From IMG/VR virus record IMGVR_UViG_2844443253_000007: a DNA stretch of 48,088 nucleotides; one strand, 5' to 3'. This stretch comes from a virus (taxonomy: Duplodnaviria > Heunggongvirae > Uroviricota > Caudoviricetes). The translations under genes were made by a program, and so were the position numbers. Positions 13,226 to 13,536 of the stretch are shown here, in pieces; position 1 is the first letter of the stretch, and every line of letters starts with the position of its first letter. Under the pieces are notes generated by a model that did no database searches, was not told where the DNA came from, and saw only the letters and a list, made by a program, of their open reading frames with translations.

Positions 13226-13302
13226 GGCCCTTTAGCTCAGTTGGTCAGAGCGAGCGACTCATAATCGCCAGGTCGCTGGTTCAAGTCCAGCAAGGGCCAC
13301 CA
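13226..13302 (+). tRNA. tRNA with anticodon CAT (Ile2/lysidine-type or Met)
   Basis: Cloverleaf with acceptor GGCCCTT/AAGGGCC, anticodon loop CTCATAA, TPsiC GGTTCAAGTCC, CCA end; resembles ileX/ileZ-type. Confidence 0.8.
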
Positions 13303-13303
13303 A

Positions 13304-13380
13304 CCACCACTAGCTCATCCGGATAGAGCATCAACCTTCTAAGTTGACGGTGCGAGGTTCGAGTCCTCGGTGGTGGGCCA
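13304..13380 (+). tRNA. tRNA-Arg (anticodon TCT); unusual acceptor stem beginning with C
   Basis: Anticodon loop CTTCTAA, TPsiC GGTTCGAGTCC, acceptor CCACCAC/GTGGTGG, CCA end. Confidence 0.7.
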
Positions 13381-13382
13381 GC

Positions 13383-13458
13383 GCCGACTTAGCTCAGCAG
13401 GCAGAGCAACTGACTTGTAATCAGTAGGTCACCAGTTCGATTCCGGTAGTCGGCACCA
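13383..13458 (+). tRNA. tRNA-Thr (anticodon TGT)
   Basis: Acceptor GCCGACT/AGTCGGC, anticodon loop CTTGTAA, TPsiC AGTTCGATTCC, CCA end. Confidence 0.75.
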
Positions 13459-13461
13459 TAT

Positions 13462-13536
13462 GCGGGCATCGTATAATGGCTATTACCTCAGCCTTCCAAG
13501 CTGATGATGCGGGTTCGATTCCCGCTGCCCGCTCCA
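13462..13536 (+). tRNA. tRNA-Gly (anticodon TCC)
   Basis: Acceptor GCGGGCA/TGCCCGC, anticodon loop CTTCCAA, TPsiC GGTTCGATTCC, CCA end; resembles host glyT-type sequence. Confidence 0.85.

What the first reader, a model, noticed from the sequence alone, without database searches (positions are those of the whole stretch)
13226..13536. Tightly packed four-tRNA array (CAT, Arg-TCT, Thr-TGT, Gly-TCC) with 1-3-bp spacers, immediately upstream of the integrase
Spacing of only 1-3 nt between genes is phage-like rather than typical of host tRNA operons. The position (downstream of a Q-family antiterminator, upstream of an integrase) suggests either phage-encoded tRNAs of the late operon or the attachment target of the integrase element. 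tRNA-Arg(TCT) has an unusual acceptor stem beginning with C, and the Gly(TCC) gene resembles a host-type tRNA, which could make its 3' end an att site.
Basis: partly seen in the sequence, partly recalled or inferred. Interest (0 to 1): 0.5.

Follow-up and report, generated by a model that had tools for sequence, protein, structure and literature searches.

The report
Prophage tRNA array hosting T7-promoter island
Four real tRNA genes carried by a decayed lambda-like prophage end in an exact copy of the host's glycine tRNA gene glyT, and that last gene has served as the landing site for a small integrase island carrying three perfect phage-T7 promoters; each component is of a known kind, but the nesting is unusual.

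Summary
ARAGORN and Rfam both call four tRNAs at 13226-13536 (CAT, Arg-TCT, Thr-TGT, Gly-TCC) with spacers of 1, 2 and 3 nt.

The array is phage-borne. tRNA 1 is the ileZ homologue of Stx phages, and tRNA 2 uses the argN scaffold, where a C1-G72 start is a family trait. tRNAs 3 and 4 are copies of host thrU (2 nt different) and glyT (75/75). Intact coliphages carry the same array between Q and the holin gene.

Phage homology stops at the CCA of tRNA-Gly (13536). From 13537 the DNA is 94% identical to a 4-7 kb integrase island that normally sits at chromosomal glyU, flanked by the 17-bp repeat TCCCTTCGCCCGCTCCA. Two other prophages show both junctions of such an insertion, so the tRNA-Gly is an attL.

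In this window the island is decayed. The integrase is intact, but IS elements cut the rest and attR is missing.

The island carries three perfect T7 promoters ahead of an AT-rich module. Two sister islands encode the anti-T7 defence protein RAZR.

I recall, but could not verify, that such tandem-T7-promoter islands were described in 2006. Overall this is a new member of known kinds, of moderate interest.

The parts
10246..10920 (+). Context: Q-family late antiterminator of the prophage (DUF1133 / Phage_antitermQ). It is followed by c4-a1b1, isrK and C4 RNAs at 10940-11141.
   Evidence: Pfam; Rfam. The region is collinear with the E. coli EPSSH018 prophage.
11222..12507 (+). Context: IS3-family insertion sequence (IS600-like; the name is from memory). 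It cuts off the 5' end of the ORF6N-domain gene at 12508-13017.
   Evidence: Repeat families D1/I1; Pfam ORF6N. Homology to L002 resumes at window 12508.
13114..13137 (+). Terminator-like hairpin followed by a T-run (AACCCGC-TTTAT-GCGGGTT-TTTTT), upstream of the array. A weak sigma-70-like match (TTTGCA-18-TATTAT) lies at 13187-13216.
   Evidence: Read from the sequence. The promoter scan found 4 sites against 4.9 expected in shuffles, so it is not evidence of function.
13226..13302 (+). tRNA with anticodon CAT. It is the ileZ homologue, so probably a tRNA-Ile2 read as AUA after lysidine modification.
   Evidence: 70.5 bits. It differs from Stx2a-phage ileZ by 2 substitutions and one extra D-loop base. 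PGAP annotates the L002 orthologue as tRNA-Ile. It has C4-G69 and C5-G68, which are TilS determinants (from my own knowledge).
13304..13380 (+). tRNA-Arg (TCT) on the phage argN-type scaffold, with C1-G72 and discriminator G.
   Evidence: 56.4 bits. The alignment shows the same scaffold carrying TCG in Stx2a argN and TTT in PhiR47_1 and EPSSH018.
13383..13458 (+). tRNA-Thr (TGT), a copy of host thrU with two D-loop substitutions.
   Evidence: 69.8 bits; alignment.
13462..13536 (+). tRNA-Gly (TCC), 75/75 identical to host glyT. Its 3' part forms the attL junction.
   Evidence: 64.9 bits; alignment; cloverleaf fold of -28.4 kcal/mol.
13511..13536 (+). att core region GGGTTCGATTCCC-GCT-GCCCGCTCCA. 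It matches the glyU target (…CCC-TTC-GCCCGCTCCA) at 23 of 26 positions. Phage homology ends at 13536.
13537..13650 (+). Left (P') arm of the island. It contains the direct repeats ACTGTAACCC / ACTGTGTAACCC (about 13611-13631), which are possible arm-type integrase sites.
   Evidence: It is nearly identical to the DNA that follows glyU in E. coli 21AR0133. The motif recurs in the P arm beside attR in L002. The arm-site role is inferred.
13651..15255 (+). Island integrase: a 534-aa tyrosine recombinase with a weak N-terminal DUF6538 match. The gene is intact.
   Evidence: Pfam. Catalytic motifs (GARLNE, HSFRH, GHS…TYDRY) are conserved in 6 homologues. The identical protein is listed in 2232 collection blocks.
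15268..15636 (+). 3.1 tandem copies of a 121-nt unit. Each copy holds a perfect 23-nt T7 class III promoter, TAATACGACTCACTATAGGGAGA (15344-15366, 15465-15487, 15585-15607), pointing away from int.
   Evidence: The matches are to promoters of T7-group phages. Among 185,579 species genomes, the only natural occurrence of this 23-mer is in the same island family.
15644..15985 (+). Conserved non-coding module of the island family. It comprises block CCGTAACTTATCGCATCCTTTCAGGGGCGGGATG (15644-15677), an AT-rich array of xxTTAAAG repeats spaced 11-12 nt apart (15802-15937), and the palindrome GGTGATGATATTTATAATAATCAATCACC (15957-15985).
   Evidence: It is conserved in the E. coli and Klebsiella copies and in the metagenomic copies long enough to align (the block itself was the search pattern that found the 21 metagenomic loci).
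16005..17253 (+). IS3-family (IS911-like) insertion into the island's short-repeat region, with a probable TCT target duplication.
   Evidence: (D10, D12, D16).
17254..17777 (+). Remainder of the island. It holds GGTCTC-type short repeats and the first 52 codons of a Rha-family (Ant-like) gene starting at 17623. IS1 cuts it off at 17778. attR and the phage lysis genes are absent.
   Evidence: (Phage_pRha).

Best explanation
The four genes are a phage tRNA module of a lambdoid prophage remnant in a Shigella-type, IS-ridden chromosome. They are transcribed in the direction of the late genes.

The module is a variant of the ileZ-argN module of Stx and lambdoid phages. It has an ileZ-type tRNA (CAT, probably lysidine-modified to read AUA), an argN-scaffold tRNA whose anticodon here is TCT (AGA), and captured copies of host thrU (ACA) and glyT (GGA). 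Its inferred role is to supply decoders for codons that are rarer in host genes than in phage genes.

The last gene shares 23 of 26 positions of its 3' end with chromosomal glyU. A small integrative island whose tyrosine integrase normally recombines a 17-bp core (TCCCTTCGCCCGCTCCA) at glyU used it as a secondary attachment site. The tRNA-Gly/island boundary at 13536/13537 is therefore attL, and the integrase belongs to the island, not to the prophage.

The island belongs to a family that places exact promoters of T7-like phage RNA polymerases (here three T7 promoters) in front of a conserved AT-rich, origin-like module and a few cargo genes. I infer that it is switched on, and possibly replicated, by an infecting T7-like phage.

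In this window the island is a fossil. int and the promoters survive. An IS911-like element and IS1 have destroyed the cargo, and attR and the phage lysis and morphogenesis region have been lost.
For: Shown by tool results:
- All four tRNAs are accepted by two predictors.
- tRNA 1 differs from ileZ by 2 substitutions and 1 extra base, tRNA 2 uses the argN scaffold, Thr is thrU with 2 changes, and Gly is glyT at 75/75.
- The same array lies between Q and holin S in phages PhiR47_1 and 689R5.
- Homology to those phages ends exactly at the CCA, position 13536.
- From the tRNA-Gly onward the DNA (13462-15249) is 93.7% identical to an island beside glyU in E. coli 21AR0133, with 87% identity continuing to 16004.
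- glyU islands are bounded by the 17-bp direct repeat in L001, L006, L007 and L025. In the metagenomic loci every visible attL but one is at glyU; the exception follows another element.
- Two independent prophage insertions keep both junctions. Their attL is a glyT/glyU hybrid tRNA (…CCC-TTC-GCCCGCTCCA). Their attR carries the original phage 3' end (…CCC-GCT-GCCCGCTCCA) and is followed by the phage holin region (L002, L019). A third prophage insertion, L021, shows the hybrid attL.
- The integrase is intact and its catalytic motifs are conserved.
- Perfect T7 promoters are present. Their counterparts in sister islands are T7-, K11- and a third T7-like type that occurs several times per 40-kb viral contig.
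- RAZR/PD-T7-4 sits next to int in sister islands L002 and L025. [quoted passage not shown]
- ATA and AGA codons are about 2x and 5x more frequent in the sampled prophage genes than in sampled host core genes. ACA and GGA are only slightly higher.
Against: - No attR exists in the window, so integration here is inferred from one junction plus relatives.
- The window's attL is pure glyT type (GCT), whereas the three other prophage insertions carry the island's TTC. The crossover point, or the fate of the 3-nt heterology, must have differed, or the tRNA was later repaired. This is unexplained.
- A predicted attP junction was not found in metagenome or viral collections, so no excised form has been seen.
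- tRNA expression is untested, and the promoter scan is no better than chance.
- The codon-usage samples are small.
- Nothing here shows that T7 RNA polymerase actually transcribes or replicates the island.
Confidence: 0.85

Rival explanations
1. The array is a host chromosomal tRNA operon, and the integrase is the prophage's own integrase sitting at its chromosomal attB (tRNA-Gly).
For: The Thr and Gly genes are (nearly) identical to host thrU and glyT. Integrases next to tRNA genes usually mark the edge of an element.
Against: - In 5,421 of 5,426 E. coli genomes the Thr/Gly match is the thrU-tyrU-glyT-thrT-tufB operon, which has different spacing and content.
- The 4-gene array itself occurs in phage genomes between Q and holin.
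- Prophage genes lie on the 5' side and tail-fibre genes on the far side of the island.
- The integrase's relatives sit at glyU with no phage attached.
Confidence: 0.03
2. The int/T7-promoter block is not an independent insertion. It is a moron-like module acquired by homologous or illegitimate recombination between phages, and its position next to tRNA-Gly is incidental.
For: The window's tRNA-Gly shows no island-derived bases (GCT, not TTC), and no attR is present.
Against: - The boundary falls exactly at the tRNA 3' end.
- The flanking island DNA is the same P' arm that follows glyU.
- Three other prophage copies show the reciprocal hybrid junctions expected of site-specific recombination.
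- The missing attR is explained by IS1 and IS3-family truncation.
Confidence: 0.07
3. On what the docked island does: it is purely a defence cassette. The T7-type promoters serve only as a phage-RNA-polymerase sensor that expresses toxic or interfering cargo (Rha/KilA-N proteins and others, beside RAZR), with no replication or packaging by the phage.
For: - The promoters point toward the cargo genes.
- Klebsiella-type copies have a further promoter directly upstream of the cargo ORFs.
- RAZR, an experimentally validated anti-T7 system, is carried by sister islands (PMC13017515).
- No replication or packaging genes were recognised.
Against: - In E. coli-type copies a conserved non-coding module of roughly 0.8-0.9 kb lies between the promoters and the first cargo gene. 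It contains an AT-rich phased-repeat array, a palindrome and repeats rich in T7 primase recognition pentamers: 25 against 6.1±2.3 in shuffles, although tandem repetition inflates this. This layout resembles the T7 primary origin, with tandem promoters phi1.1A/1.1B (annotated) followed by an AT-rich region (that part is from my own knowledge).
- The TAAAG phasing resembles the T7 left end.
- The two roles are not mutually exclusive.
Confidence: 0.4

Closest known systems
ileZ-argN-argO tRNA module of Stx-converting and other lambdoid phages
   Same: It has the same position, downstream of Q in the late region. tRNA 1 differs from ileZ by 2 substitutions and one extra base. tRNA 2 shares the argN scaffold, including the C1-G72 start. 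Genes are packed equally tightly: there is a 1-nt spacer between ileZ and argN in Stx2a_F349.
   Different: Here tRNA 2 has anticodon TCT, whereas argN has TCG in Stx2a_F349. argO is replaced by copies of host thrU and glyT. No toxin gene follows; in intact relatives the holin gene follows.
tRNA-gene-targeting integrative islands with tyrosine integrases (P4-type or PAI-type integration at the 3' end of a tRNA gene)
   Same: int lies next to the tRNA 3' end. A 17-bp direct repeat of the tRNA end bounds intact copies. The tRNA is reconstituted at attL.
   Different: The target here is not the chromosomal gene glyU. It is a paralogous tRNA (a glyT copy) carried by a prophage, with 3 mismatches in the core. 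In three of the four prophage cases the result is a damaged hybrid tRNA scoring 48.9 rather than 64.9 bits, and folding at -23.4 rather than -28.4 kcal/mol.
Tandem T7-like-promoter islands of enterobacteria (Chen & Schneider, Nucleic Acids Res 2006, 34:1133; recalled from memory, the paper could not be fetched)
   Same: As I remember the paper, it described islands of 4-13 kb with 2-3 tandem T7-like promoters, an upstream Int-family integrase, 17-bp direct repeats at both ends and no RNA polymerase gene. It proposed that they are satellite phages activated by a T7-like RNA polymerase. All of these features were re-derived here independently.
   Different: The following were found here and are not in my memory of that paper:
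- RAZR/PD-T7-4 as cargo.
- Combinations of T7-, K11- and a third promoter type within one island.
- Insertion into a prophage-borne glyT copy.
- The decayed state of the copy in this window.
RAZR (PD-T7-4) defence system
   Same: Sister islands L002 and L025 encode it immediately after int (E=3e-97 and 8e-99). This matches the published remark that its homologues often overlap an integrase gene (10.1101/2022.05.12.491691).
   Different: The window's island has no RAZR gene. The promoter repeats follow int directly.
Phage T7 primary origin of replication (tandem promoters phi1.1A/phi1.1B followed by an AT-rich region) and the T7 left-end CCTAAAG repeat arrays
   Same: The island has tandem T7 promoters followed by an AT-rich array of phased xxTAAAG repeats and many primase-recognition pentamers.
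   Different: There is no nucleotide homology beyond the promoters. The repeat period is 11-12 nt rather than 13 nt. No function has been tested. This is a resemblance only.

Membership tests
Lambdoid-phage late-region tRNA module (ileZ-argN type) | The genes are real tRNAs accepted by predictors. | tested here: met
   ARAGORN finds 4 of 4. Rfam scores are 56-70 bits against a gathering score of 29.
Lambdoid-phage late-region tRNA module (ileZ-argN type) | The tRNAs are homologous to ileZ and argN. | tested here: met
   tRNA 1 differs from ileZ by 2 substitutions and 1 extra base. tRNA 2 shares the argN scaffold, 88-90% identical across both genes, but carries anticodon TCT rather than TCG.
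Lambdoid-phage late-region tRNA module (ileZ-argN type) | The module lies between Q and the lysis or late genes of a phage genome. | tested here: inconclusive
   This is met in the intact relatives PhiR47_1, 689R5 and EPSSH018. In the window Q lies upstream, but the lysis genes have been lost.
Lambdoid-phage late-region tRNA module (ileZ-argN type) | The third tRNA is argO. | tested here: not met
   It is replaced by thrU and glyT copies. This is therefore a variant of the module, not the canonical trio.
tRNA-targeting integrative island (tyrosine recombinase) | A tyrosine recombinase with catalytic residues lies adjacent to the tRNA 3' end. | tested here: met
   Pfam Phage_integrase, E=2e-17. 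The conserved R, H-x-x-R, H and Y motifs are present. The gene starts 114 nt from the tRNA.
tRNA-targeting integrative island (tyrosine recombinase) | A direct repeat of the tRNA 3' end (attR) marks the far end of the element. | tested here: not met
   It is absent from the window and from 21.6-kb loci of 8 sister genomes. It is present in relatives L001, L002, L006, L007, L019, L025 and in metagenomic copies. IS truncation explains the absence.
tRNA-targeting integrative island (tyrosine recombinase) | The element excises to a circular attP form. | tested here: inconclusive
   The predicted attP junction gave 0 hits in metagenome and viral collections. An experiment is needed.
Tandem T7-like-promoter islands (Chen & Schneider 2006; from memory) | There are two or more tandem promoters of a T7-group RNA polymerase and no RNA polymerase gene. 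| tested here: met
   Three perfect 23-nt T7 promoters lie within 264 bp. No RNA polymerase ORF is present in the island.
Tandem T7-like-promoter islands (Chen & Schneider 2006; from memory) | An Int-family integrase lies upstream of the promoters, and 17-bp direct repeats bound the island. | tested here: inconclusive
   The integrase criterion is met. The 17-bp repeat is present only as a variant at attL (TCCC-GCT-GCCCGCTCCA), and attR has been lost.
Known phage-satellite families (P4-like, PICI, cfPICI, PLE) | The element has its own replication initiator or primase and capsid or packaging-redirection genes. | tested here: not met
   Pfam, PHROGs and PADLOC scans of intact relatives find only Rha/KilA-N, DUF6971, RAZR and unknown proteins. 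I do not file the island as a member of these families.
RAZR / PD-T7-4 defence locus | A zinc-finger plus DUF4145 (HEPN-like) gene is present. | tested here: not met
   No such gene lies in the window's island: int is followed directly by the promoter repeats. It is present in sister islands L002 and L025.

The most novel reading that the evidence does not exclude
The island docked on this tRNA-Gly represents satellites of virulent T7-like phages in enterobacteria. These are 4-7 kb integrase elements that carry exact promoters for the RNA polymerases of whichever T7-like phages attack their host (T7, K11 and a third type, in mixed sets). The promoters sit in front of a T7-origin-like AT-rich module. 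On this reading the infecting phage's own polymerase and replisome would switch the element on, amplify it and perhaps package it as concatemers, while cargo such as RAZR or Rha/KilA-N proteins blocks the phage. Using a prophage-borne glyT copy as a second landing site would additionally let the element travel on temperate phages. The satellite idea was, as far as I remember, proposed computationally in 2006 but has never been tested. The origin mimicry, the RAZR link and the prophage docking are added here.
Probability: 0.25. Interest if true: 0.8.

Novelty: new member of a known kind. Interest (0 to 1): 0.45.

Why it matters
For genome annotation:
- The integrase next to this array should not be read as the prophage's integrase.
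- The array should not be read as a host tRNA operon.
- This is a nested arrangement: a mobile element inside a mobile element, later shredded by IS elements.

For biology:
- A tRNA gene captured from the host by a phage can become a secondary attachment site for islands that normally target a paralogous chromosomal tRNA. This gives such islands a route onto temperate phages. In three of four prophage cases it comes at the cost of a damaged hybrid tRNA.
- The docked island family is a natural example of host-borne DNA carrying exact promoters of virulent T7-like phages. It is now linked to a validated anti-T7 defence protein, RAZR.
- Whether enterobacteria have satellites or RNA-polymerase-triggered defences against T7-like phages can be tested directly with strains that carry intact 4.3-kb copies, for example E. 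coli FT130.

Tried and rejected
- attR in the window. I searched with the 25-nt tRNA-Gly 3' end at up to 3 mismatches and with the regex TCCCNNNGCCCGCTCCA. Only attL was found. The same was true of 8 sister chromosomes (L008-L015).
- Phage lysis and late genes downstream. BLAST of PhiR47_1, 689R5 and EPSSH018 against the window found nothing beyond 13536 except IS elements.
- Host-operon idea. Rejected on the basis.
- Excised attP junction. There were 0 hits in metagenome and viral collections.
- Defence-model scan of the window integrase and of Rha/KilA-N cargo. It found nothing significant except a marginal PD-T4-2_B match. The 202-aa ORF of L019 is not RAZR.
- Perfect T7 promoter in 185,579 species genomes. 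There were 9 hits, of which 8 are cloning-vector contamination with pcDNA3- or pET-type flanks. Only the Klebsiella hit is natural.
- Literature. Ten full-text searches found no description of the island or of prophage-tRNA docking. I then recalled Chen & Schneider 2006. Seven look-ups across DOI, PubMed and PMC ids for it and for their 2005 paper failed, and a citing paper held no reference to it. It is cited from memory only.
- Promoter and terminator scan around the array. It was no better than shuffles.
- T7 primase-site enrichment and TAAAG phasing. The enrichment is real, but it is confounded by tandem repetition. I keep both as leads, not as evidence.
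Full report
**1. Observation**

ARAGORN finds four tRNA genes in the whole 48-kb window, all on the + strand. They are 13226-13302 (CAT), 13304-13380 (Arg TCT), 13383-13458 (Thr TGT) and 13462-13536 (Gly TCC). Rfam's tRNA covariance model confirms each one at 70.5, 56.4, 69.8 and 64.9 bits, against a gathering score of 29. The spacers are 1, 2 and 3 nt, and every gene encodes its CCA end. A 534-aa ORF with a Phage_integrase domain starts 114 nt downstream.

The Q-family gene (DUF1133/Phage_antitermQ, 10246-10920) lies 2.3 kb upstream. 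Between it and the array are c4/isrK RNAs, an IS3-family element (11222-12507) and an ORF6N gene remnant.

**2. Setting**

The window is saturated with insertion sequences:
- four IS1 copies;
- five copies of a 1.26-kb IS3-family element;
- an IS629-like element;
- IS911-like copies, one of which carries a group II intron.

It also holds the Shigella sRNA CssrB, an ABC-3/ZnuA transporter operon and a long ORF with 60-nt repeats. The exact integrase protein is listed in 2232 collection blocks, and all 8 chromosomal places displayed share this layout. No complete E. coli genome has the same tRNA/island junction. I infer a Shigella-type chromosome; the species was not verified.

Window 3916-13536 is collinear with a lambdoid prophage of E. 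coli EPSSH018, from the replication genes to the tRNA array.

**3. What the tRNAs are**

- The CAT tRNA differs from ileZ of an Stx2a phage by two substitutions and one extra D-loop base. PGAP calls the EPSSH018 orthologue tRNA-Ile.
- The second tRNA is built on the argN scaffold. The same scaffold carries TCG in Stx2a argN, TCT here and in L019, and TTT (preceded by C at position 33) in PhiR47_1 and EPSSH018.
- The Thr gene is host thrU with two D-loop changes.
- The Gly gene is 75/75 identical to host glyT.

In E. coli chromosomes these two genes occur only in the thrU-tyrU-glyT-thrT-tufB operon, which has different spacing. The four-gene array, by contrast, sits between Q and holin S in phages PhiR47_1 and vB_EcoS-689R5. 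The array is therefore phage cargo: a variant of the ileZ-argN module in which argO is replaced by captured host thrU and glyT.

In small samples, ATA and AGA are about 2x and 5x more frequent in prophage genes than in host core genes. ACA and GGA are only slightly higher. This fits the usual codon-supply explanation, which remains an inference.

**4. Relation to the integrase**

Homology to the intact phages stops exactly at the CCA of tRNA-Gly, position 13536. From the tRNA-Gly onward (13462-15249) the DNA is 93.7% identical to an element that lies immediately after chromosomal glyU (tRNA-Gly CCC) in E. coli 21AR0133. About 87% identity continues to 16004.

Copies at glyU are bounded by a 17-bp direct repeat, TCCCTTCGCCCGCTCCA, which is the 3' end of glyU. 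This holds in L001, L006, L007 and Klebsiella L025. In the metagenomic loci every visible attL but one is at glyU; the exception follows another element. The elements are 4.2-7.3 kb long.

The phage glyT copy matches glyU at 23 of 26 positions of its 3' end (GGGTTCGATTCCC-GCT/TTC-GCCCGCTCCA).

Two other prophages carry such an island at the phage tRNA-Gly with both junctions preserved (L002 = EPSSH018 and L019):
- attL is a hybrid tRNA, with a glyT body and a glyU-type end containing TTC.
- attR is an island arm joined to the original phage end containing GCT, followed by the phage holin region.

A third prophage insertion, L021, shows the hybrid attL. These are the reciprocal products expected of site-specific integration into a secondary site. 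They place the exchange at or to the left of the 3-nt heterology.

The hybrid tRNA loses one acceptor pair and two T-stem pairs. It scores 48.9 rather than 64.9 bits and folds at -23.4 rather than -28.4 kcal/mol.

Only 1 of 5,426 complete E. coli genomes has an island at the prophage tRNA, so this docking is rare.

**5. The copy in this window**

Here attL keeps the full glyT sequence (GCT). There are three possible reasons:
- the exchange occurred to the right of the heterology;
- the heterology lay within the overlap region and segregated the other way;
- the tRNA was later corrected.

This cannot be decided without attR, which is absent.

The integrase is intact and its catalytic motifs are conserved. 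The rest of the island is a ruin. An IS911-like element (16005-17253) sits in the repeat region. A Rha-family gene is cut after 52 codons by IS1 at 17778. The phage lysis and head genes are gone, and tail-fibre genes resume near 20045.

**6. What the island is**

Directly after int lie 3.1 copies of a 121-nt unit. Each copy contains a perfect 23-nt T7 class III promoter, TAATACGACTCACTATAGGGAGA, at 15344, 15465 and 15585, pointing away from int. BLAST finds only the promoters of T7-group phages.

Every relative of the window-type island at glyU has one to three such promoters. The promoter module occurs in 91 of 5,426 E. coli genomes, always on the chromosome.

In 185,579 species-representative genomes the 23-mer occurs nine times. 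Eight of these are cloning-vector contamination. The ninth is the same island family at glyU of Klebsiella pneumoniae ATCC 13883. That copy carries, in sequence, K11-type, T7-type and K11-type promoters, and a third T7-like promoter type further on.

Twenty of 21 metagenomic relatives carry at least one such promoter, in mixed sets. The third type, and the variant found in L002, both occur in viral contigs of about 40 kb; the third type occurs several times per contig.

Downstream of the promoters the family shares the following:
- a conserved block;
- an AT-rich array of xxTTAAAG repeats with an 11-12 nt period;
- a palindrome;
- short repeats rich in T7 primase recognition pentamers (25 against 6.1±2.3 expected, although tandem repetition inflates this).

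The cargo is Rha or KilA-N proteins, DUF6971 and unknown ORFs. In islands L002 and L025, RAZR/PD-T7-4 is encoded right after int. RAZR is a validated abortive-infection RNase that defends against T7 and T3 (PMC13017515). Its homologues were noted to overlap an integrase gene (10.1101/2022.05.12.491691).

**7. Mechanism**

Shown:
- the tRNA genes and their origins;
- the junction and the reciprocal junctions in relatives;
- the promoters and their phage specificity;
- the RAZR cargo in sister islands.

Inferred:
- the island's Int recombines its 17-bp core with glyU and, less faithfully, with the prophage glyT copy;
- an infecting T7-like phage's RNA polymerase transcribes from the island promoters.

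The consequence of that transcription could be expression of interfering cargo (sensor or defence), T7-replisome-dependent amplification at an origin-like module (satellite), or both. The tandem-promoter-plus-AT-rich layout resembles the T7 primary origin: the promoters phi1.1A/1.1B are annotated, and the AT-rich part is from my own knowledge. The TAAAG phasing resembles the T7 left end. These are resemblances, not tests.

**8. Comparison with what is known, and novelty**

- Phage tRNA modules of the ileZ-argN type are well known.
- tRNA-targeting integrase islands are well known.
- From memory, Chen & Schneider (Nucleic Acids Res 2006, 34:1133) described tandem T7-like-promoter islands in enterobacteria. 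As I recall, they were 4-13 kb, had an upstream integrase and 17-bp terminal repeats, and were proposed to be satellite phages dependent on a T7-like RNA polymerase. I could not retrieve the paper, and ten full-text searches did not surface it. My results re-derive those features independently.

To my knowledge the following are added here:
- the docking of such an island on a prophage-borne glyT copy, with the hybrid-tRNA outcome;
- the RAZR link;
- the mixed promoter sets;
- the origin-like anatomy.

The finding as given is therefore a new member of known kinds. It is correct and more interesting than a plain phage tRNA cluster, but it is not a new category.

**9. Verdict**

| Item | Verdict |
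|---|---|
| Observation | Confirmed |
| Confidence in the main explanation | 0.85 |
| Interest | 0.45 |
| Most novel reading not excluded | T7-like-phage satellites with an origin mimic: probability about 0.25, interest 0.8 if true |

Noticed in passing
window 13304-13380; L003 6095-6171; L002 11929-12005; L023 2595-2671: One phage tRNA scaffold (C1-G72, argN type) carries three different anticodons in different phages: TCG (Stx2a argN), TCT (this window and L019) and TTT (PhiR47_1, 689R5, EPSSH018). The TTT version has C instead of the near-universal U at position 33 and scores only 44.4 bits against 56.4. This looks like anticodon switching within a phage tRNA lineage.
   Followed up: partly
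L025 2960-3540 (Klebsiella pneumoniae ATCC 13883); L053-L073: Klebsiella and metagenomic copies of the island family combine promoters of different T7-like phages within one element: K11-type AATTAGGGCACACTATAGGGAGA, T7-type, and AATTAGGTAGCACTATAGGGAGA. Often a further promoter lies 340-410 nt beyond the conserved block, just before the cargo ORFs.
   Followed up: partly
L026-L033 (genome-contig hits): Eight public bacterial or MAG assemblies contain the T7 promoter with pcDNA3-type or pET-type flanks. This is cloning-vector contamination in the assemblies.
   Followed up: yes
window 29578-33096: A second IS911-like copy is interrupted by a group II intron. The Rfam Intron_gpII match is at 32523-32609. 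The 507-aa ORF at 30996-32519 has a homologue carrying RVT_1 and GIIM domains in L012.
   Followed up: partly
window 10940-11141 (+) and 39889-40077 (-): There are two copies of the isrK / C4 antisense RNA module, in opposite orientation. There are also duplicated prophage segments (2151-3484 = 37957-39290; 21537-21836 = 41734-42033). The window therefore holds remnants of at least two related lambdoid prophages.
   Followed up: no
window 7819-7993: A hok/sok-type toxin-antitoxin RNA (Rfam sok/CssrC, 118 bits) lies inside the prophage early region. The same locus is present in EPSSH018 and L019.
   Followed up: no
L001 22357-24429; L069 attL: Islands can be arrayed in tandem on the same 17-bp core. 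In L001 a second, 650-aa integrase gene starts about 90 nt after the first island's attR. In L069 the island's attL is preceded by another element's end rather than by glyU.
   Followed up: no
window 15268-15636 and 17254-17470; L006 21813-22045: The island's non-coding region is built from short tandem repeats (GATGACCATAGGC, CCTGTGTGGTC, TCTCTAGGGTCTC) that contain the T7 primase recognition pentamers TGGTC, GGGTC and GTGTC. These occur 4-5 times more often than in shuffles, but repetition alone could produce this.
   Followed up: partly
window 22276-22346 vs 44641-44711; 42655-44370 (-): A 71-nt segment next to the transporter operon is 79% identical to the 3' part of the CssrB sRNA locus. 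That locus lies beside a 571-aa ORF with 60-nt leucine-rich-type repeats. The ORF is probably ipaH, but this was not verified.
   Followed up: no
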